The position numbers and the translations under genes were made by a program. Shown here piece by piece: positions 34,224 to 58,232 of a stretch of 64,000 bases of DNA. The notes beneath the pieces are model-generated. The model was not told the origin of the DNA. It was given only the letters and a program-made list of their open reading frames with translations, and made no database searches. Source of the stretch: a virus; the IMG/VR virus record IMGVR_UViG_3300045988_035499; one strand, written 5' to 3'. Each line of letters starts with the position of its first letter. The first letter of the stretch is position 1.

Positions 34224-34327
34224 AGGGAGAGGAAGGACTCGAACCTTCAAACCCAAGAGCTTTATTAACGACGACTTTAGGGCGCTTCCGTCAATCTACT
34301 GCCGTATACCTATTCCGCCACTCTCCC
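34224..34327 (-). ncRNA. 104-nt tRNA-like element without a canonical anticodon arm
   Basis: GGGAGAG/CTCTCCC acceptor, a tRNA-Leu-like D region (TGGCGGAATAGGTATACGG) and a GAAGG-TTCGAGT-CCTTC T arm. The centre folds only as GACGG-13 nt-TCGTC; that loop contains CCCUAAA. Confidence 0.4.
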
Positions 34328-41159: not shown

Positions 41160-41620
41160 TAAGTCTTAAGACTCGCAATAGTGCATGAGCGTTAGATGGC
41201 ACTTACGTTTAGATGTGGTAGTGTATAAAAACCACTCTAGTTCGAGCATACTATAAAAAGCTCATCTTGAAAAAACTCAATAACTTCGGAGTAGCGTAAG
41301 CTACGGAGTTGTGTAACAATCCCAAGACATTGAGGGCACCAGTTCTTTCATTCTTTCGTGGGAATACTACATGATTACAGTAGTATATTAGCGAAAAGGT
41401 AATCGTAATTGAATGAAAGTTTAATTGTAGAATTAGCTACTCTACAATTTAGTGAACGTTAGTGACGTTGTAATATAATTAGTCTTTAGAAGGACTATAT
41501 TACATTACTAAATAACTCCTCATCTTATTCTAGATATGTAAGATGAGGGCTATCGTATCTGTAGATACCTGATGAGTCTTTGAAAATTAAGACGAAATAG
41601 CAATTATTAACCAAATAAAC
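41160..41620 (+). ncRNA. ORF-free hairpin-dense island 1
   Basis: GTAA-capped stem GTAGC/GCTAC, 10-bp stem cctcatctta/taagatgagg (41518-41548), GTATC-TGTA-GATAC. Stops in all frames. Confidence 0.4.
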
Positions 41621-41626
41621 AACAAT

Positions 41627-41728
41627 ATGAAAGCAAACAATCAAGACATCGAATTCAAGATATGCACAGCATTAGCTATAGCTATGATAATAGCAAGTAT
41701 TGTTTGCTATCATATCTTTAATATTTAG
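41627..41728 (+). CDS. 33-aa hydrophobic peptide (hypothetical)
   Basis: ATG 41627, ends in TAG 41726-41728. Confidence 0.25.
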   Translation: MKANNQDIEFKICTALAIAMIIASIVCYHIFNI

Positions 41729-41732
41729 CGTT

Positions 41733-41969
41733 ATGGAAATAACTAAAACATTGTACAATTTATTAGGTAAAGAAGTAATAGTAGAATACTCTAATAAAAA
41801 AGTTCTTACTACAATAAGTATAATAGAGAACAATGAAGGAGTAATAACCTTCGTACTATCAAATGGTGATAAAATAGCATTAGATACAATAAGTTCAATT
41901 GTACATAATAATAGTACTACAACTATTACTTACAATGATGAAGGACTGATTGTATTTAAAATAGTCTAA
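41733..41969 (+). CDS. hypothetical protein
   Basis: ATG at 41733 within track ORF 41700..41969. Confidence 0.45.
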   Translation: MEITKTLYNLLGKEVIVEYSNKKVLTTISIIENNEGVITFVLSNGDKIALDTISSIVHNNSTTTITYNDEGLIVFKIV

Positions 41970-41974
41970 GAAAA

Positions 41975-42665
41975 CTTCAAAAACAGATTTATTCGCAAAG
42001 TAATTATTCTATGAAATGCAAATTAACTTCTAGTGTTGTGAAACACACAATCCACGTTTTAATTATAATAGTATAAGTTAGGTATGCCCTTATAAAGACT
42101 TAGGTAACGCTAAGGACTATACTATTATAATTCTCTTCTTAATGCAGCTAATATAGCAGTGACAAGCCTGTCTAATCGTCATAGAGACGTGAATGCAGAG
42201 TCAAGAAAACATAATCTTATTTACTATGCACAAGTAAATACAGATTATGAATCCACGTGGAAGGAAGATAGGTACAGTTGTAGGTTCCAGCTGAGTGCAT
42301 ACCTGATTAAGCAACCAAGCGAAAGTAAGTATAGCAAAATTAAGTCGTAGCGTTACGGCTTTACTTTAACAAATGAGTCCTGAACACTCATATAACGTAC
42401 TTACTGGTCTGACACTAACCAAAAATAAGTGTCACTCTTATATCTGAAACAGTTCTATAGATATAGGTAAGATTAGAAGAACATAGGTAGAAATCCTTTT
42501 AAAGGCACTTAGGCTAAGTGTAATATAGCCTGATAATAGAGTAAGAGAAAATGAGACGAGAATATCACCGTAGCTCTTAGCATAGCTTATAGTCATATAA
42601 CGTAACAGTTGACTATATTAATGCGCTTACTCTATTATTTTTATTGCATTAACTAACAAATAAAT
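41975..42665 (+). ncRNA. ORF-free hairpin-dense island 2
   Basis: Perfect 15-bp closing stem 42061-42075 / 42118-42132. Perfect 13-bp closing stem 42533-42545 / 42626-42638 followed by a T5 run. Confidence 0.45.
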
Positions 42666-42672
42666 CAATTAT

Positions 42673-42882
42673 ATGGAAACAAAAGTAGTACTAATAATCA
42701 CTGTTCATCTAATGCTGGGTATACTTGGATCTATACTTTTTCTTAAAGATATATATAGAACATACGGAGAGTTAACATTAGGCGATATATTAACGTTCTT
42801 AATAATTGCTCTTACAGGACCAATTACTCTACTAGCTTTATTAACAAAATATCTTGATAGATTTAAAATACTAAAAAAGTAA
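42673..42882 (+). CDS. small two-TM membrane protein
   Basis: Intact 69-aa ORF with an ATG start. Confidence 0.5.
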   Translation: METKVVLIITVHLMLGILGSILFLKDIYRTYGELTLGDILTFLIIALTGPITLLALLTKYLDRFKILKK

Positions 42883-43250
42883 CTAATAAATCATGTAAAT
42901 TAGAATCTTATTAATAAGTTAATGCAGTAAATATTACTGCATCTATACTGTGAGAATCAGTATCAACTTTGTGGGGCTTATATTTAGACAATGTGTGATA
43001 ATAGTTGCAAATATTATTATATAATCTAATATTAGTGCAGATGAAATCAAAGATAGTTCGTATTTGCGGTATTGCGGGATACGAACAAGTCAAGTCATTA
43101 TAAGACTGGGTAGCGTGATACAAAAAATCCTAGCTGACCTGTAGCTAGGTATCTTTAAGGTGAGAATCCTTGACAATCCTGTGGGGCTCATATCTTTAGC
43201 TGTCCATTCAACTTGCGCTGTAGTTGAAATCGGCAACCAGCAAAGTATTA

Positions 43251-43268
43251 GTGCAGACGTTAAAATCA
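43251..43268 (+). repeat. 18-nt motif GTGCAGACGTTAAAATCA, copy 1
   Basis: Identical to 45284-45301. A degenerate copy is at 43036-43049. Confidence 0.8.
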
Positions 43269-43432
43269 GGAACAACTACATCATTCCTAACAATATTATT
43301 AGTCATAAGCTTAACAACAATACGATGTAGCCAAGTATGCCCGTCTTTAGTATCTAACAAAACTACGTTTTGCCTGTTTTTGCTGTATTATTTTTAGCAA
43401 TTCATTCCAAATGACTAGTGTGTCATTACTAA

Positions 43433-43458
43433 TATACTTATCTGTGAAGATAGGTATA
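43433..43458 (+). repeat. 26-nt hairpin TATACTTATCT-GTGA-AGATAGGTATA, copy 1
   Basis: 11-bp stem with a GNRA loop. The copy at 45158-45183 differs by one A-to-G change that keeps pairing (A-U to G-U). Confidence 0.8.
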
Positions 43459-43588
43459 TTAGTTGCACTCATAAGGTAGCCTTCACGTGGCGAGTGTGTA
43501 AGTAGTAGGTTTAAAAAAGAAATCCAGTTTGTTTGCCTATGAAACTAATACCTTTATTTAATAGTATTAATCAATAATATATAATAGT

Positions 43589-43861
43589 ATGAAAAAGAAA
43601 GAATTATCTAAAAGACATCAAATAATTGTATATATGAATATACATTTACTTGAATTCCTTCTAAAAAGGCACTTACTAACTAATTTTATAGATGAAGCAG
43701 TTAGACAATCAAAGTGGCATATACCAGTATATAGAGAAGAACAAAAGTATTGTTATTTTTGTGAATTCTTTTCATGGACTAAATCAAAAAGAGGTTGCAA
43801 ATATTGGGCAACAATAGATTCAGATTTTGACATTTATTTATATAATCTAAAAACAGCATGA
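43589..43861 (+). CDS. hypothetical protein, tandem paralog A
   Basis: KRHQIIVYMN..LLEFLLKRHLL and W.KSKRGCKYW parallel the next ORF. Confidence 0.5.
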   Translation: MKKKELSKRHQIIVYMNIHLLEFLLKRHLLTNFIDEAVRQSKWHIPVYREEQKYCYFCEFFSWTKSKRGCKYWATIDSDFDIYLYNLKTA

Positions 43862-44103
43862 AAAAAATCAAAAGACATCGGTTCGTGATTAATCTACCTT
43901 CAACTTTACTACTTTTTCTTATTAAAGAAAGAGTATTAAGTAAATTTATATCTAATACTGTAGACTTTTTTTCTGGAAAAGGAAAAGGATTTATTTTAAT
44001 ACCTGATTTAGCCGAAAGTTACTTTGAATGGGAGAGCACTAAAGAGGGTCATAAATACTGGGAAGACTTAATTAATAAATATTATGAACAATATGATGAA
44101 TAA
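43858..44103 (+). CDS. hypothetical protein, tandem paralog B
   Basis: KRHRFVINLP..LLLFLIKERVL and WESTKEGHKYW. ATGA overlap with paralog A. Confidence 0.5.
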   Translation: MKKIKRHRFVINLPSTLLLFLIKERVLSKFISNTVDFFSGKGKGFILIPDLAESYFEWESTKEGHKYWEDLINKYYEQYDE

Positions 44104-44368
44104 AATTAGTAAGTATATTCTAGTAATTATACTTATTATTGTAATAGCTTACACTATTATAAAATGCATTCCTGAACATCCTATATACAATTTTGTAGAT
44201 TTACAAATGAAGTATAAGAGGTATCTATTAGTAGATAAATATGTAGAAAACTTTAGTGATTCTTACGTATTTATACTGAAAAATCCAGTTACTAATCAAA
44301 ACAATAGAGTATATGTAAAAGATTACTTATACACTAATGTATATTTCGTTGGAGATACTATTAAATAA
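44084..44368 (+). CDS. membrane-anchored hypothetical protein
   Basis: N-terminal TM segment (YILVIILIIVIAYTII). Confidence 0.45.
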   Translation: MNNMMNKISKYILVIILIIVIAYTIIKCIPEHPIYNFVDLQMKYKRYLLVDKYVENFSDSYVFILKNPVTNQNNRVYVKDYLYTNVYFVGDTIK

Positions 44369-44483
44369 CAATTATGAAAAGAGAAGATATCAAGCAGAAT
44401 ATCTAAAAACTAACTTTGCTGACCTATTACTTAACTGGTTTGAAAAGTAATTATATTATTAACTATTAAACGTTTATCAAAAA

Positions 44484-44669
44484 ATGAAGAAAAGTTTTAT
44501 TTTACATTCCGCAGTAGACGGTACTGAACTTTTAGTGCCAAGAGACTCCTTAGACTACGCTTACGTAGATGACGATAATAACACTATTGCTGTTATTTTG
44601 TCTAACGAATTTGCGGTTACTGAATCTATGGCTGAAATAGCCGATAACTTAGAAGAAATGGAGGACTAA
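44484..44669 (+). CDS. small acidic hypothetical protein
   Basis: Intact 61-aa ORF. Confidence 0.4.
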   Translation: MKKSFILHSAVDGTELLVPRDSLDYAYVDDDNNTIAVILSNEFAVTESMAEIADNLEEMED

Positions 44670-44671
44670 AA

Positions 44672-45124
44672 ATGGAAAATGAACTAATGAAAATGCCTAA
44701 GTCATCTAATAAAGTATGGATATGGGCACTGCTGTTTATTGCTATTTTAGCAGTCGCAGCGACTGTAATCTATCTCGATCGTGAGAAGATTTCAAGACTT
44801 TTTAACTCTGAGAAGAGTACTGAGCTACAAAAAACTGATATTGCAGAGGATTATGTTCCTACAATACAGGAAACTCTACAAATGAGGGAACAAATGAAAT
44901 GGAATCAGCATGTTGACAGTGTATTTCTTACAATGCCAGAGGTAGTTCTAACTGATATTTTGATTAATCATGGTACAAGTATGTCTATAGAAGACATAGT
45001 TACTATATATGAATCAAACAAGAACTGCTACAATAGTGTTCTAAGTGGTGCACGATCGCAACAATATATTGATTCTATAAATGAAAAACGAGAAGAAAGA
45101 GATACAATTAGTATTTCTCATTAG
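44672..45124 (+). CDS. membrane-anchored hypothetical protein
   Basis: N-terminal TM segment (VWIWALLFIAILAVAATVIYL). Confidence 0.5.
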   Translation: MENELMKMPKSSNKVWIWALLFIAILAVAATVIYLDREKISRLFNSEKSTELQKTDIAEDYVPTIQETLQMREQMKWNQHVDSVFLTMPEVVLTDILINHGTSMSIEDIVTIYESNKNCYNSVLSGARSQQYIDSINEKREERDTISISH

Positions 45125-45157
45125 CGTAACCTCCTAATAAGTTAATATTAGGTTAAC

Positions 45158-45183
45158 TATACTTGTCTGTGAAGATAGGTATA
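45158..45183 (+). repeat. 26-nt GTGA-capped hairpin, copy 2
   Basis: See 43433-43458. Confidence 0.8.
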
Positions 45184-45283
45184 GTCTTCAGAAAATGACA
45201 AACATGTGGGGCGTAAGAAATTCTATATCTATAATCCATTCTGTTTAAGTTATAGATGAAAGTAACAGAAAAGAATTTTGATC

Positions 45284-45301
45284 GTGCAGACGTTAAAATC
45301 A
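45284..45301 (+). repeat. 18-nt motif GTGCAGACGTTAAAATCA, copy 2
   Basis: See 43251-43268. Confidence 0.8.
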
Positions 45302-45542
45302 TGTACTCCAATAAGGATGGTTTGACAGCTATTCCTGCTTATGAGTTAAAACTATAGTGAGAGTCAGAATATATTAGGTAAGAGAAAACAAGTGAATACT
45401 ATTTATCTTATTAACATGTTTTACAACAAAAGTGGCTAAAAGAGTTTAGCAAAAGTCTGATACTTAGACTTAAAACACAAATCCAAAAGTATCTTGGTCG
45501 TCGTCAATAATTATTAACTAACAATTTAAGATTATGTAAAAA

Positions 45543-45788
45543 ATGAAAGGAAAACGGTATTTGACTGAAATCACATTTAAAACAGATCACTTTTTAGCTA
45601 ATTTATTAGCAGTAAGAAGTTTCTGTGGTATTACTCCACTATCTAAAGCTAAAGAATTAGTTAATCAAGGTAGAAATGGGGTGACTGTAAACAATCTTCA
45701 TTTAGAATTAAATACTAAATTATCTACAGATGACTTAGTAGCTAAGCTAGATGAATATGAAATATACATTAAAATAACTAATCAATAG
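45543..45788 (+). CDS. hypothetical protein
   Basis: Intact 81-aa ORF terminated by TAG (45786-45788). Confidence 0.5.
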   Translation: MKGKRYLTEITFKTDHFLANLLAVRSFCGITPLSKAKELVNQGRNGVTVNNLHLELNTKLSTDDLVAKLDEYEIYIKITNQ

Positions 45789-45796
45789 TAAAAAAA

Positions 45797-46303
45797 ATGA
45801 AAGCAATTATTATCGTATTTGATGGAGAGTATTTACCTGAATATGGTGGACAGGATGCACTCTGCGCTAAATTAGTTAAGACATTTAGCGCACGCTCTAA
45901 TGGCGTAGAAGTACCTAATAGAAAAGTAAAAGTTGTTACTATGACTGACTCTGATATAGAGAAGTTATTAGTATTAAATACTTTAACTAAAACAGAAGGT
46001 ATAAGTTGTGCTACAATTAATCAATCTGTAAAAATAGCAGATATAATTGATGATTTCTGTAAAAAGGTATTAGCTATTGTAGGTAGTAGAGTATTACTTG
46101 GGGAAAGTACCTTTAAACAGGCTTTTGTTATTAATCTGATTAATAAAGATGAACTACGTAAGCATCCTGCAGTACCGTATATTGCAGAGATAACAGATGA
46201 AAAGATATATCTTGATAGACGTAATCAGCTAAATAGCTATAAATACGGCTGTCTACCAGAGTATATTAACATAGTTCACAATAGTATATGTAAACTCTAC
46301 TAA
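45797..46303 (+). CDS. hypothetical protein
   Basis: Intact 168-aa ORF. Confidence 0.5.
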   Translation: MKAIIIVFDGEYLPEYGGQDALCAKLVKTFSARSNGVEVPNRKVKVVTMTDSDIEKLLVLNTLTKTEGISCATINQSVKIADIIDDFCKKVLAIVGSRVLLGESTFKQAFVINLINKDELRKHPAVPYIAEITDEKIYLDRRNQLNSYKYGCLPEYINIVHNSICKLY

Positions 46304-46304
46304 T

Positions 46305-46403
46305 ATGGCAAAGACAGATAAGGAAGAAAAACCGAAAGACTTCAAGAAGAGGCCTAAACATAAAAAAATGGAGCCTTATAGCCGCACTAAAGCATGGAAA
46401 TAA
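46305..46403 (+). CDS. 32-aa basic peptide (hypothetical)
   Basis: ATG 46305, TAA 46401-46403. Confidence 0.25.
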   Translation: MAKTDKEEKPKDFKKRPKHKKMEPYSRTKAWK

Positions 46404-46543
46404 TTGAACAACAATGTCCTACACGTGATAATAAAATTGCCTGTAGTGAATGCCCTCATGAGTGTAAACTCAGAATGGAACCAAAGAACAGTACGTCAAC
46501 AGAGATTCCGCCAGAGTCTCTGCCAACTGTTATATATTACTAA
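46394..46543 (+). CDS. 49-aa Cys-rich peptide (hypothetical)
   Basis: ATG 46394. MEIIEQQCPTRDNKIACSECPHECK. A better candidate than the overlapping TTG-initiated track ORF 46404..46619. Confidence 0.3.
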   Translation: MEIIEQQCPTRDNKIACSECPHECKLRMEPKNSTSTEIPPESLPTVIYY

Positions 46544-46768
46544 TTTTAATTTGTTAGTAACATGGTGGATTCAGTCAACCAAAGGATTACTTAAAGCCAG
46601 AACCCTAATGGAAGCTTAGTACTACTAAGCTACTAAGCAAGAGTACAAAGGACTATACAACGGTCAACCTAGCAATAGGTCAGGAGAAGGACGTGGGCTG
46701 TCTGCGAATAAGAAGTACAAATAAGCAGAGTAATTCTTTTAAATTTAAATCATTAAATATCAAGTTAT

Positions 46769-47056
46769 ATGACAAAAACAAAAAGAATAAAACAATTAAA
46801 AGCAGCTATATCTACAGGACTATTAAGTATAATAGATACAAAGTACTGTGAAAAAGAAATTGCTAAATTAGAAAAGCAATTAAAAGCTGAAGAACAACGA
46901 ATTCATATTTTTCTTATGAAATGTTCTGAAAATTCATTAAAGCGTAAAGAAGCTTATGAAAACAGAAAATTGATAAAAGCAGGAGAAAGAGAAAGTTATC
47001 GTCAACGTAAAATAAGACTTAATAAAGAAAGAAGAGATTCTTTAAATAAGTATTAA
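46769..47056 (+). CDS. basic coiled-coil hypothetical protein
   Basis: Intact 95-aa ORF. Confidence 0.5.
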   Translation: MTKTKRIKQLKAAISTGLLSIIDTKYCEKEIAKLEKQLKAEEQRIHIFLMKCSENSLKRKEAYENRKLIKAGERESYRQRKIRLNKERRDSLNKY

Positions 47057-47057
47057 A

Positions 47058-47285
47058 ATGGCATATTACTATACTCAAATAAATATAGCTCCTACTGAAG
47101 ATATAGATAGAAGAGCTGAAGCATTAGCATATTTTCACAATATGAATATTGCAGATGCACTATTAATGTGTAGTAAAAATAAATGGAAAAGTATTAAAGT
47201 CAAAGTTAAATACATAGCTAAAGCTGTAGTATATGCTAGATATAGATACTTTTCTGATTGTGACTTTATAGAAATAATTCCATAG
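47058..47285 (+). CDS. hypothetical protein
   Basis: Intact 75-aa ORF terminated by TAG. Confidence 0.45.
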   Translation: MAYYYTQINIAPTEDIDRRAEALAYFHNMNIADALLMCSKNKWKSIKVKVKYIAKAVVYARYRYFSDCDFIEIIP

Positions 47286-47328
47286 AGTTAATTAATATAT
47301 TTTTTAATCATTAAAACTGTAATCAAAA

Positions 47329-47799
47329 ATGGCAGAAAAAGAAAAAATGAACATCCTCACAACTGAGGATATCAATGGAGAAAATATCCAAGAGGTTATC
47401 TCCAATTCAAGTAAGGTAACGGAAGATATTGCAACGAAAGCAGCAGAAAAGATTGCTGAGCGTCGTAAAGAGAAACTTACGAACGACCTTATTGAAGTTG
47501 TACAGAAGTGCGAATATACAGTATCGGCTGCGGTACTGCAAGTTCGTCGCTCTAATCGTACAAACCAACGTATCAAAAGCTATCTGAAGTCTTTGTCAGA
47601 ACTAGCTGAAGATGTCAAGAGCGGAAAGAAACCTGTAACAGCATGGGACAAAGAAGCTCGTGAGATGAAGAAGCAGTTTGACAAAGACTTGATTGAAATT
47701 GGAAAGAGTATCGATGAATCTCTTCGTGAGCTGAACGAAATCTTCCCGAATTCATGGCAATGGCGATACGGAGAATTAGTTCCTGGAAACAAAAATTAA
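47329..47799 (+). CDS. hypothetical protein
   Basis: Intact 156-aa ORF that looks GC-richer by eye. Three antisense track ORFs are shadows. Confidence 0.55.
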   Translation: MAEKEKMNILTTEDINGENIQEVISNSSKVTEDIATKAAEKIAERRKEKLTNDLIEVVQKCEYTVSAAVLQVRRSNRTNQRIKSYLKSLSELAEDVKSGKKPVTAWDKEAREMKKQFDKDLIEIGKSIDESLRELNEIFPNSWQWRYGELVPGNKN

Positions 47800-47828
47800 T
47801 TCTCAAATTAAAAGAGACACCAGAGTTA

Positions 47829-47841
47829 GAATCTTTGAATC
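47829..47841 (+). repeat. 13-mer GAATCTTTGAATC, copy 1
   Basis: Exact copies at 47920-47932, 48055-48067 and 53840-53852. Confidence 0.85.
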
Positions 47842-47919
47842 AATACTCTTAGTGAGGGGCGGTTGGGCTTTTGCCGGGGATACCAGCGCACACGGACCTG
47901 AATTAACAGGTCACATATG

Positions 47920-47932
47920 GAATCTTTGAATC
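47920..47932 (+). repeat. 13-mer GAATCTTTGAATC, copy 2
   Basis: Exact repeat. Confidence 0.85.
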
Positions 47933-48054
47933 AATTATGTGGTGTTACAATGAACTACTGATCATAAGTCTGAGATCGCGACAATAAGATTGTCCCGCAT
48001 TAGTAATAATGCTGAAACGCTTTAGTCGTGATATCAAGTCAGACAGATATTTGT

Positions 48055-48067
48055 GAATCTTTGAATC
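48055..48067 (+). repeat. 13-mer GAATCTTTGAATC, copy 3
   Basis: Exact repeat. Confidence 0.85.
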
Positions 48068-48194
48068 TTATAGAACTAAGTAACGAGTTTGAGAATGTTC
48101 TATATCAGATATCGTTAGTATTATCAAGATCAGTAATAGAGATTAACCATCTCAAGACCATAGGGTATATGACTTTGGTCGGTCATATACCCAC

Positions 48195-48254
48195 ATTGAC
48201 TGCTAGGTCTATGAATCAGTCGTATGGACGAGGGTTTGATCCCCTCCAGCTCCA
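48195..48254 (+). ncRNA. tmRNA-like acceptor piece (3' half of a tRNA-like domain)
   Basis: GGACGAGGGTTTGATCCCCTCCAGCTCCA: T arm GAGGG-TTTGATC-CCCTC (48230-48246), acceptor 3' strand CAGCTCC (48247-48253), discriminator A. Closely resembles bacterial ssrA 3' ends as I recall them. Confidence 0.5.
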
Positions 48255-48382
48255 CAACAAGTGCTAAAGGATGTGGGTGAGACTCCCTTAAGTGCTCGCG
48301 AGATAGTAATTGCTTGAGCTGCCTGATAACGGCTAGGATAATTTAGAAGCTTCGTTCTAGCTGGCACTTTATTACATTACAA

Positions 48383-48520
48383 GGGGCTGAATGAATTTGA
48401 CAGCGACAATGTGAAGTAGAATAGGTCAATAAGCAGATAACTGGCAACACAAGTTATGTAACAGATTACACTCGCTTAGTAGCGTAAGTAATCTAACGGC
48501 TAAGCTAATGTCGTAAAAAG
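48383..48520 (+). ncRNA. tmRNA-like coding piece (5' acceptor strand plus candidate tag frame)
   Basis: GGGGCTGAATGAATTTGACAGCG starts at 48383. GGGGCTG pairs with the upstream CAGCTCC. GCGAC/GTCGT and GTCAAT/ATTGAC give P2-like pairing. A frame from GGC 48443 encodes GNTSYVTDYTRLVA and stops at TAA 48485. Confidence 0.45.
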
Positions 48521-48524
48521 CTGG

Positions 48525-48599
48525 AGTAAGTAAGCTTTGCATGGTAGTGAAGCCTTGGGTTTTACCAAGAGATAAGGAGTTCGAGTCTCCTACTTACTA
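48525..48599 (+). ncRNA. tRNA-like element with a 6-nt anticodon loop
   Basis: AGTAAGT/ACTTACT acceptor, GCTT/AAGC D stem, AGGAG-TTCGAGT-CTCCT T arm. The anticodon arm is CTTGG-GTTTTA-CCAAG (six-nt loop, no position 26). Confidence 0.4.
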
Positions 48600-48635
48600 C
48601 AACTAAATTAAATTTAATCAATAAATTAATTTGAA

Positions 48636-58141: not shown

Positions 58142-58212
58142 TCCTATATAGCTCAGTTGGTAGAGCCGCTAGTAATAGTGTGATTGCGCTGGTTCGAGTC
58201 CAGCTATAGGAT
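58142..58212 (+). ncRNA. tRNA-like element whose anticodon loop is replaced by a GUAA tetraloop
   Basis: TCCTATA TA GCTC AGTTGGTA GAGC, then CGCTA-GTAA-TAGTG, then TGATTGC GCTGG TTCGAGT CCAGC TATAGGA T. Perfect acceptor, D and T arms, but only 21 nt where 22-23 are needed. Confidence 0.45.
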
Positions 58213-58232
58213 CTAATTTTAACTTTATTAAT

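What the first reader, a model, noticed from the sequence alone, without database searches (positions are those of the whole stretch)
42940..45310. A roughly 130-nt RNA module is present in three copies, with a compensatory change in its hairpin
The same elements recur in the same order: (GTGAGAATC)…TGTGGGGC…ATAT.TTAG…GTGCAGA(C/T)G(TT)AAAATCA. Copies lie at about 42950-43050, 43165-43268 and 45190-45301. The last two share a perfect 18-mer. The hairpin TATACTTATCT-GTGA-AGATAGGTATA (43433) recurs at 45158 with a single A-to-G change that converts an A-U pair to G-U. That points to selection on RNA structure rather than on coding. The copies are separated by six small protein genes.
Basis: seen in the sequence. 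Interest (0 to 1): 0.65.

Follow-up and report, generated by a model that had tools for sequence, protein, structure and literature searches.

The report
Three hatchet ribozymes in crAss-like phage
The three repeated RNA modules are copies of the already known hatchet self-cleaving ribozyme in a crAss-like gut phage, and the repeated hairpin sits just before the cutting site of one hatchet and of an HDV-like ribozyme that the RNA family library does not list.

Summary
The three modules (42941-43052, 43151-43271, 45184-45304, + strand) are full-length matches to the Rfam hatchet ribozyme family RF02678, at 85-96 bits against a curated threshold of 51.

They lie in an island of ribozymes and RAGATH RNAs in a crAss-like phage of the family Suoliviridae. 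About 100 related phage contigs keep the same order. Stems P1, P2 and P3 show fully compensated changes among 114 distinct homologues. These are old paralogues (54-63% identical), not a recent duplication.

At 45158 it is P0, the known accessory hairpin of hatchet 3. At 43433 it lies 1 nt before a 90-nt HDV-like ribozyme (43465-43554) that Rfam does not detect. That element has the nested double-pseudoknot layout, with covariation in P2 and P4. Its L3 loop and the following GU are identical to the CPEB3 ribozyme. It also has a G1·U wobble pair and an invariant C at the start of J4/2.

The A-to-G change in the hairpin is one-sided, not compensatory.

I infer that four ribozymes, each cutting at its own 5' end, divide one long phage transcript. 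Each upstream piece would end in a stable hairpin. The hatchets are already known. The HDV-like element and the shared GUGA hairpin are modestly new.

The parts
42922..42942 (+). P0 hairpin of hatchet 1 (ATGCAGTAA-ATA-TTACTGCAT). It ends 2 nt before P1.
   Evidence: Folds at -9.5 kcal/mol, z -3.9. P0 is described for about 90% of hatchets (PMC4604424).
42941..43052 (+). Hatchet ribozyme 1. P1 has 6 bp. The 3' strand of loop L2 is shortened (GCAG-AUG-AAAUCA, 3 nt fewer than the consensus). The predicted cut is at the 5' base of P1, between 42944 and 42945 (give or take 1 nt).
   Evidence: Rfam RF02678 at 85.1 bits (threshold 51), E 3e-16, model 1-133. The short-L2 form is kept in 46 orthologues. 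It is 98% identical to the cr53_1 orthologue.
43129..43149 (+). P0 hairpin of hatchet 2 (CCTAGCT-GACCTGT-AGCTAGG).
   Evidence: Folds at -10.6 kcal/mol, z -3.4. The terminator scan flags it only because of the hairpin.
43151..43271 (+). Hatchet ribozyme 2. P1 has 6 bp and all conserved core nucleotides are present. The predicted cut is between 43154 and 43155 (give or take 1 nt).
   Evidence: Rfam RF02678 at 92.4 bits, E 4e-18.
43428..43463 (+). 16-bp hairpin with a GUGA loop, 1 nt upstream of G1 of the HDV-like ribozyme.
   Evidence: Folds at -19.0 kcal/mol, z -7.4. Six of 16 pairs change on both sides in homologues, and the GUGA loop is invariant.
43465..43554 (+). HDV-like self-cleaving ribozyme (candidate). 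P1 is 43465-70 with 43492-97 (G1·U). P2 is 43473-78 with 43549-54. P3 is 43479-81 with 43489-91. L3 is UUCACGU (43482-88). The P1.1 partners are G43498 and U43499. P4 is 43505-10 with 43535-40. J4/2 is CUAA, with the putative catalytic C at 43545. The predicted cut is between 43464 and 43465.
   Evidence: Covariation on 48 distinct homologues: 99.1% of cells paired against 24-52% when partners are slid. Four of 6 P2 pairs and 2 of 6 P4 pairs change on both sides. L3 and the following GU are identical to CPEB3. My own descriptor gives one hit in the window against 0.1 expected per 128 kb. Rfam gives only a partial HDV-F-prausnitzii match at E 9.9.
45156..45185 (+). P0 hairpin of hatchet 3 (core 45158-45183, GUGA loop).
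   Evidence: Folds at -15.9 kcal/mol, z -5.4. A GUGA-loop P0 is found in all 57 type-3 orthologues captured.
45184..45304 (+). Hatchet ribozyme 3. P1 has 3 bp (UCA/UGA, loop GAAAA). The predicted cut is between 45187 and 45188 (give or take 1 nt).
   Evidence: Rfam RF02678 at 95.7 bits, E 5.4e-19. A 3-bp P1 is one of the two natural lengths.
43589..45124 (+). Five to six small ORFs (90, 81, 94, 37, 61 and 150 aa). They would lie on the RNA piece bounded by the HDV-like cut and the hatchet-3 cut.
   Evidence: ORF list. No informative family match. The orthologue of the 150-aa ORF is annotated 'shock protein B' in cr53_1.
41287..42434 (+). Upstream part of the same ribozyme and RAGATH island: RAGATH-14-like (41287-41521), type III hammerhead (41547-41603), RAGATH-6-like (41986-42135), twister-P1-like (42136-42206) and RAGATH-7-like (42210-42434).
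   Evidence: All are below the Rfam thresholds, with E-values from 1e-24 to 0.014. The hammerhead core CUGAUGA...GAAA is intact in the sequence.
46571..46740 (+). RAGATH-9 RNA, downstream in the same island.
   Evidence: Rfam RF03146 at 133.6 bits (threshold 75.2).

Best explanation
The three modules are hatchet self-cleaving ribozymes. Each has the family's optional upstream P0 hairpin. They lie on the + strand of a crAss-like (Suoliviridae) phage, in a non-coding region that also holds a hammerhead, RAGATH RNAs and an HDV-like ribozyme absent from Rfam.

Hatchet and HDV-like ribozymes both cut at their own 5' end by internal transesterification. The products carry a 2',3'-cyclic phosphate and a 5'-OH.

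Inferred mechanism: the region is transcribed as one long RNA. The four ribozymes cut it at about 42944/45, 43154/55, 43464/65 and 45187/88. Each upstream piece then ends in a stable hairpin with only 1-5 unpaired nucleotides and a cyclic phosphate. Each downstream piece starts with a 5'-OH on a compact ribozyme fold.

This would give separate pieces: a 210-nt RNA, a 310-nt RNA, a 1.7-kb mRNA for the small proteins, and so on. Each would have protected ends without transcription having to stop.

Shown: family identity, structure conservation, synteny, and hairpin placement. Inferred: co-transcription, cleavage in vivo, and the end-protecting role of the hairpins.
For: Three full-length Rfam hatchet matches well above threshold.

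The conserved CAA, UGGG, GCAG and AAA segments named in the crystal-structure paper are present in all three copies.

P1 is 6, 6 and 3 bp, the two natural lengths. A P0 hairpin lies a few nt upstream of each copy, as described.

Among 114 distinct homologues from about 105 viral contigs, P2 takes six different fully paired forms. P1 switches between ATACTG/CAGTAT and ACACTG/CAGTGT. P3 position 34-60 switches between T-A and G-C.

The order hatchet 1, hatchet 2, HDV-like, hatchet 3 is conserved, including in cr53_1 and cr115_1.

Paralogues are only 54-63% identical.

The HDV-like fold is supported by covariation, a CPEB3-identical L3 and GU, and a descriptor scan.

The + strand of the window has only two long GUGA hairpins. 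Both lie directly 5' of a ribozyme that cuts at its 5' end.

The only terminator-like site on the + strand between 41000 and 48500 is the P0 of hatchet 2.

Precedent: theta ribozymes of gut phages cut at the 3' end of an upstream tRNA.
Against: No cleavage or transcript data exist for this sequence.

Hatchet 1 lacks 3 nt of the 3' strand of L2, including the position of U71, which pairs with A65 in the crystal structure. Its activity is therefore uncertain.

In these copies the conserved C is at position -2 and a U is at -1, whereas the tested constructs have C(-1). The exact cut is uncertain by 1 nt.

P0 was dispensable for hatchet catalysis in vitro. Any role for it rests on placement only.

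P1 and P3 of the HDV-like element never vary, partly because the search pattern fixed P3, L3 and one P1 strand. They are supported by complementarity only. P1 has 6 bp, whereas CPEB3 has 7.
Confidence: 0.85

Rival explanations
1. A recent segmental duplication of a non-functional sequence. The similarity would reflect copying, not selection on RNA structure.
For: Copies 1 and 2 are adjacent. The two GUGA hairpins in this window are 25 of 26 identical, which does look like a recent copying event for the hairpin alone.
Against: The copies are 54-63% identical, with identity confined to the catalytic core. Each paralogue has its own orthologues in about 100 genomes. P2 differs between paralogues yet is always fully paired.
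Confidence: 0.02
2. The hatchets are true family members, but one or more are inactive relics, hatchet 1 above all. The region would then not be processed as proposed.
For: Hatchet 1 has GCAGAUG-AAAUCA instead of GCAGACGUUAAAAUCA. No activity data exist.
Against: The shortened form is kept in 46 orthologous copies, with the linker reduced to 2-3 nt, and P1 and P2 remain compensated. Replacing A67-U70 with UUUU still gave a monomeric variant that was used in cleavage assays. The conserved CAA, UGGG, GCAG and AAA segments are intact.
Confidence: 0.2
3. The GUGA hairpins work independently of the ribozymes, for example as RNase III or protein binding sites, or as pause or terminator signals. Their position next to the cut sites would be incidental.
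For: The GUGA loop is invariant in both hairpin families. P0 is dispensable for hatchet catalysis in vitro.
Against: Neither hairpin is followed by a run of T. The spacing to the cut site is fixed, at 1 nt for the HDV-like element and 2-4 nt for hatchet 3, in all homologues. No other long GUGA hairpin exists on this strand.
Confidence: 0.15
4. The 43465-43554 element is a conserved structured RNA that has an HDV-like layout but does not self-cleave.
For: Rfam gives no significant HDV-family match. P1 has 6 bp. P1 and P3 show no covariation.
Against: L3 (UUCACGU) and the following GU are identical to CPEB3. The G1·U wobble and the C at the first J4/2 position are invariant in 48 variants. Paired length changes occur on both strands of the outer part of P4.
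Confidence: 0.2

Closest known systems
Hatchet self-cleaving ribozyme (Rfam RF02678; Weinberg et al. 2015; Li et al. 2015, PMC4604424; Zheng et al. 2019, PMC6561176)
   Same: Full-length covariance-model matches. Stems P1-P4 are present. The conserved CAA, UGGG, GCAG and AAA segments are present. P1 is 6 or 3 bp. A P0 hairpin lies upstream. The setting is the human gut and Crassvirales.
   Different: Nothing essential differs. Hatchet 1 and its orthologues form a subtype with a 3' strand of L2 that is 3-4 nt shorter. Position -1 is U, with the conserved C at -2.
HDV-like ribozymes, especially the CPEB3 ribozyme
   Same: This comparison is for the 43465-43554 element. It shares the nested double-pseudoknot order P1-P2-P3-L3-P3'-P1'-P1.1-P4-J4/2-P2'. 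It has the same 7-nt L3 (UUCACGU) and the GU after P1, a G1·U wobble at the cut site, and C-N-A-A in J4/2.
   Different: P1 has 6 bp rather than 7. P4 is long (about 45 nt) with an invariant UCCAGUUU loop. It is a phage element preceded by a 16-bp GUGA hairpin. No Rfam model detects it.
Theta ribozymes (minimal HDV-like ribozymes of gut Caudoviricetes; Kienbeck et al. 2024, PMC10879173)
   Same: HDV-like ribozymes in gut phages of Bacteroidota. The cut site abuts the 3' end of an upstream structured RNA, so the ribozyme defines that RNA's 3' end.
   Different: Theta ribozymes lack P4 and follow a tRNA. This element has P4 and follows a GUGA hairpin. In relatives a tRNA-Leu lies downstream of it, not upstream.
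RAGATH RNA neighbourhoods (RNAs associated with genes associated with twister and hammerhead ribozymes; from my own knowledge of Weinberg et al. 2015 and 2017)
   Same: Hatchet, hammerhead, twister-like and RAGATH-6, -7, -9 and -14 matches cluster within about 5.5 kb (41287-46740), as is typical for these motifs.
   Different: Most RAGATH matches here fall just below the curated thresholds. Only RAGATH-9 passes.

Membership tests
Hatchet ribozyme (RF02678) | Match to the family covariance model at or above the curated threshold (51 bits) | tested here: met
   85.1, 92.4 and 95.7 bits, each covering model positions 1-133.
Hatchet ribozyme (RF02678) | Highly conserved segments C20-A22, U28-G31, G63-G66 and A73-A75 | tested here: met
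   CAA, UGGG, GCAG and AAA are present in all three copies. The segments are as named.
Hatchet ribozyme (RF02678) | Stems P1-P4 supported by compensatory changes, with P1 of 3 or 6 bp | tested here: met
   P2 takes six fully paired forms, and P1 and P3 covary, among 114 homologues. P1 is 6, 6 and 3 bp. P4 was aligned by the model only and was not counted separately.
Hatchet ribozyme (RF02678) | P0 hairpin a few nt upstream of the cut site (about 90% of members; accessory) | tested here: met
   Stable hairpins end 2-5 nt before P1 in all three copies.
Hatchet ribozyme (RF02678) | Mg2+-dependent self-cleavage at the 5' base of P1 | not testable with these tools
   Needs an in vitro cleavage assay. 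Hatchet 1 is the doubtful copy because of its short L2.
HDV-like ribozymes | Nested double pseudoknot (P1, P2, P3, P1.1, P4 in canonical order) | tested here: met
   99.1% of cells are paired. P2 and P4 covary. P1, P3 and P1.1 are complementary but invariant.
HDV-like ribozymes | Catalytic cytosine at the first position of J4/2, followed by N-A-A | tested here: met
   C43545-U-A-A. The C is invariant in 48 variants. The feature is as defined.
HDV-like ribozymes | G1·U wobble as the first P1 pair at the cut site | tested here: met
   G43465·U43497, found in 48 of 48 variants. The feature is described.
HDV-like ribozymes | Significant match to an Rfam HDV-family model | tested here: not met
   Only a partial HDV-F-prausnitzii match at E 9.9. 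These models cannot represent pseudoknots, and the family is conserved mainly in its structure, so this is weak evidence against membership.
HDV-like ribozymes | Self-cleavage 5' of G1 that is abolished by changing the catalytic C to U | not testable with these tools
   Needs an experiment.
Theta ribozymes | Minimal form without P4, with the cut site within 5 nt of a tRNA 3' end | tested here: not met
   P4 is present (43500-43544). The upstream element is a hairpin, not a tRNA.

The most novel reading that the evidence does not exclude
The element at 43465-43554 would be an active, previously uncatalogued subfamily of HDV-like ribozymes in Suoliviridae crAss-like phages. The long GUGA hairpin would be a functional 3'-end module that these phages pair with two unrelated classes of 5'-cutting ribozyme, hatchet and HDV-like. 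Together they would punctuate a long transcript into pieces with hairpin-capped 2',3'-cyclic phosphate 3' ends and 5'-OH ends. Such ends would resist exonucleases and could in principle be joined by an RtcB-type ligase.
Probability: 0.45. Interest if true: 0.5.

Novelty: already known. Interest (0 to 1): 0.3.

Why it matters
For the finding as given, the value is a correct label. These are hatchet ribozymes, a class described in 2015 and already linked to Crassvirales.

The side result is more useful. crAss-like phages are among the most abundant human gut viruses, and the biological role of hatchet ribozymes and of their P0 hairpin is unknown. Here the same kind of hairpin sits at a fixed short distance before the cut sites of two unrelated ribozyme classes, in about 100 genomes.

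That gives a testable idea: the ribozymes exist to create hairpin-terminated RNA ends inside a long transcript. It also adds a P4-containing HDV-like ribozyme that current family libraries miss.

Tried and rejected
I looked for more distant HDV-like homologues with a second anchor, the P4 loop plus J4/2. It gave only two new loci with single-base changes, so no covariation is available for P1 or P3.

A permissive Rfam scan of 43380-43600 returned only chance microRNA-hairpin matches and a partial HDV-F-prausnitzii match at E 9.9.

PHROGs searches of ten neighbouring ORFs gave nothing informative.

The promoter scan found no more sites than shuffled sequence, 56 against 59. It is not suited to Bacteroidota or phage promoters, so the transcription start is unknown.

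I could not read Weinberg et al. 2015 (PMC4509812 is not held). Statements about that paper come from my own knowledge or from later papers.

I considered a tRNA-linked (theta-type) role for the HDV-like element and rejected it. The element has P4, and in relatives the tRNA-Leu lies downstream at variable distance. In the window there is no tRNA at that spot.

I considered ends brought together for RNA circularisation. I saw no complementarity between the piece ends by eye, but I did not test this formally.
Full report
**Observation**

A scan of the whole window against Rfam at curated thresholds places three full-length matches to the hatchet ribozyme family RF02678. They lie at 42941-43052 (85.1 bits), 43151-43271 (92.4 bits) and 45184-45304 (95.7 bits), all on the + strand. 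The threshold is 51 bits and the E-values run from 3e-16 to 5e-19.

Copies 2 and 3 share the 18-mer GTGCAGACGTTAAAATCA. The hairpin TATACTT(A/G)TCT-GTGA-AGATAGGTATA occurs at 43433 and 45158 with one difference.

Two details need correction. The A-to-G change gives G·U from A-U, which is a change on one side and not a compensatory pair of changes. Only copies 2 and 3 are separated by small genes. Copies 1 and 2 are 98 nt apart.

**What the modules are**

The hatchet ribozyme is a self-cleaving RNA class found in 2015. Later papers define it as follows.
- It has four stems, P1 to P4.
- It has highly conserved nucleotides in the P1-P2 linker and in loop L2. These are the segments C20-A22, U28-G31, G63-G66 and A73-A75.
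- It cuts at the very 5' base of P1.
- P1 is almost always 3 bp (40%) or 6 bp (59%) long.
- About 90% of members have an extra hairpin, P0, a few nucleotides upstream of the cut site. P0 is not needed for catalysis in vitro.

All three copies carry CAA, UGGG, GCAG and AAA in the right places. P1 is 6, 6 and 3 bp. Each copy is preceded by a stable hairpin ending 2-5 nt before P1, at 42922-42942, 43129-43149 and 45156-45185. The folding energies are -9.5, -10.6 and -15.9 kcal/mol.

Hatchet 1 departs from the consensus. It has GCAGAUG-AAAUCA where the consensus has GCAGACGUUAAAAUCA.

**Genome context**

The closest annotated phages are the crAss-like phages cr53_1 (Suoliviridae, Blohavirus) and cr115_1 (Suoliviridae, Birpovirus). 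cr53_1 has three hatchets and cr115_1 has two, at syntenic positions.

The window's + strand from about 41300 to 48500 is an island of structured RNAs:

| Coordinates | Rfam family | Relation to the curated threshold |
|---|---|---|
| 41287-41521 | RAGATH-14 | below |
| 41547-41603 | type III hammerhead | below, but the catalytic core is intact |
| 41986-42135 | RAGATH-6 | below |
| 42136-42206 | twister-P1 | below |
| 42210-42434 | RAGATH-7 | just below (110.3 against 111.8 bits) |
| 42941-45304 | three hatchets | above |
| 46571-46740 | RAGATH-9 | above |
| 48195-48487 | permuted tmRNA | just below (45.5 against 47 bits) |

A 2026 preprint already states that hatchets are confined largely to Crassvirales.

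**Homologues**

A pattern scan of viral contigs returned about 105 related loci. A simple hatchet pattern then found 208 copies in them, of which 114 are distinct.

The order is conserved, measured from the HDV-like element described below. Hatchet 1 lies about 600 nt upstream, hatchet 2 about 300 nt upstream, and hatchet 3 lies 1.4-2.3 kb downstream.
- P2 takes six different fully paired forms: UCCUG/CAGGA, GCAUG/CAUGC, CUUUG/CAAAG, GCAUG/CAUGU, ACCUG/CAGGU and ACAUG/CAUGU.
- P1 switches between AUACUG/CAGUAU and ACACUG/CAGUGU.
- The P3 pair 34-60 switches between U-A and G-C.

The short-L2 form of hatchet 1 is kept in 46 orthologous copies. It is a conserved subtype rather than a decaying copy.

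Within the window the three copies are only 54-63% identical. They are 98%, 80% and 65% identical to their cr53_1 orthologues. There are structure-preserving substitutions in homologues, and a recent segmental duplication is excluded.

**The second hairpin**

The hairpin at 43428-43463 is not followed by a hatchet. It is followed by a block of about 90 nt that is conserved in cr53_1, cr115_1 and all the viral loci. The block has the strand order of an HDV-like ribozyme:
- P1: GCACUC with GAGUGU. The first pair is G1·U.
- P2: AAGGUA with UACCUU, forming a pseudoknot.
- P3: GCC with GGC.
- L3: UUCACGU.
- Then GU, then P4.
- Then CUAA immediately before the 3' strand of P2.

I counted the pairs on an alignment of 48 distinct variants:

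| Measure | Result |
|---|---|
| Cells forming a standard pair | 99.1% |
| Same measure with 3' partners slid by 1-3 columns | 24-52% |
| P2 pairs with changes on both sides | 4 of 6 |
| P4 pairs with changes on both sides | 2 of 6 |
| Upstream hairpin pairs with changes on both sides | 6 of 16 |
| Shuffles (of 500) reaching the observed value | none for four of the five measures; 284 for further pair types |

The outer part of P4 also shows matched deletions on both strands.

The 7-nt L3 (U20-U21-C22-A23-C24-G25-U26) and the G37-U38 that follow P1 in the human CPEB3 ribozyme are the same as here. The G1·U wobble and a catalytic C at the start of J4/2 are family hallmarks. The C at 43545 is invariant.

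I wrote a descriptor after seeing the element, built from general HDV-like rules.
- It hits only this site on both strands of the window.
- It gives 0.1 hits per 128 kb of random sequence with the same dinucleotide content.
- It hits only this family in 895 kb of related loci.

Rfam does not detect the element. The best result is a partial HDV-F-prausnitzii match at E 9.9.

Weak points remain. P1 and P3 never vary, partly because my search pattern fixed them, and a second anchor added only two loci. P1 has 6 bp, whereas CPEB3 has 7. The element is not a theta ribozyme, because theta ribozymes lack P4 and sit after a tRNA.

**The hairpins compared**

The + strand of the window has only two long hairpins with a GUGA loop. 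Both lie directly upstream of a ribozyme that cuts at its own 5' end.

The GUGA loop is invariant in both hairpin families across all genomes, and the spacing to the cut site is fixed. The stems differ, however. In 56 related genomes the two hairpins share only 8-10 of their 22 inner stem positions. Only the window's lineage (the window, L017 and L081) has an HDV-side hairpin of this sequence, which in the window is nearly identical to the P0 of hatchet 3. The general rule is 'a long GUGA hairpin before the cut'.

**Mechanism**

Shown: family membership, conserved structure, conserved order, and hairpin placement.

From established knowledge: both ribozyme classes cut by attack of the 2'-OH on the adjacent phosphate. 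This leaves a 2',3'-cyclic phosphate on the upstream piece and a 5'-OH on the downstream piece.

Inferred:
- The island is transcribed as one RNA. All features are on the + strand. The only terminator-like site on that strand between 41000 and 48500 is the P0 of hatchet 2.
- The four ribozymes cut it into a 210-nt piece, a 310-nt piece, a 1.7-kb piece carrying the small ORFs, and a downstream piece.
- Each upstream piece would end in a stable hairpin with a very short tail. In bacteria such ends resist 3'-to-5' exonucleases (my own knowledge).
- Each downstream piece would begin with a 5'-OH on a compact fold.

Theta ribozymes give a precedent in gut phages for a 5'-cutting ribozyme that defines the 3' end of an upstream structured RNA.

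**Verdict**

The side results are modestly new. They are an HDV-like ribozyme with P4 that the family library misses, and the same hairpin design used in front of two unrelated ribozyme classes. I found no paper linking HDV-like ribozymes or self-cleaving ribozymes in detail to crAss-like phages in the held library.

Noticed in passing
window 43465-43554: An HDV-like ribozyme candidate that Rfam does not detect. It follows the 43433 hairpin directly. Its L3 and P1.1 nucleotides are identical to CPEB3, and P2 and P4 covary.
   Followed up: yes
window 43526-43530 and 43542-43546: The P4 loop UCCAGUUU of the HDV-like element is invariant in 48 variants. Its AGUUU is complementary to AAACU, which includes the putative catalytic C43545. 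This is a possible alternative pairing and is unexplained.
   Followed up: no
window 45305-45540: A non-coding block attached to the 3' end of hatchet 3 and conserved in relatives. Near its end is a hairpin that covaries (CCAA/TTGG, CCAG/CTGG, CCTG/CAGG). There is also a hairpin with a GAGA-type loop. No Rfam match.
   Followed up: partly
window 43272-43427: A non-coding block after hatchet 2. Its first 90 nt or so are conserved with cr53_1 (stem CTACATC/GATGTAG). A small hairpin at about 43410-43426 covaries in relatives (AACAGTA/TACTGTT, AATACTA/TAGTATT).
   Followed up: no
window 43053-43128: The spacer between hatchets 1 and 2 holds the hairpin GTTCGTATTTGCGG...GGGATACGAAC. Compared by eye, it is almost identical to the same spacer in cr53_1. 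It may be a small RNA released by the two cuts.
   Followed up: no
window 41547-41603: A type III hammerhead with an intact CUGAUGA...GAAA core. The predicted cut is after C41554. It scores below the Rfam threshold (38 against 48.5 bits), and the same element is present in cr53_1.
   Followed up: partly
window 41287-42434 and 47895-47977: Matches to RAGATH-14, RAGATH-6, twister-P1, RAGATH-7 and RAGATH-20, all below the curated thresholds. Several have very low E-values (RAGATH-6 at 148 bits, RAGATH-7 at 110.3 against 111.8).
   Followed up: no
window 48162-48600, 58142-58213 and 34224-34327 (- strand): A permuted tmRNA-like gene with the tag peptide GNTSYVTDYTRLVA. Two tRNA-like genes have anticodon loops that ARAGORN could not read. 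A 104-nt tRNA match on the - strand may carry an insertion.
   Followed up: no
L001 3254-3337; L002 5448-5531; L020, L029, L030 and others: In relatives a tRNA-Leu lies 5 nt to about 300 nt downstream of the HDV-like ribozyme. The window has no tRNA at that position.
   Followed up: partly
related loci (for example L001 4621-4769): 37 of 208 hatchet copies in relatives have GCGG instead of the 'highly conserved' GCAG (A65 changed to G). One copy has an inserted base (GCGAG).
   Followed up: no
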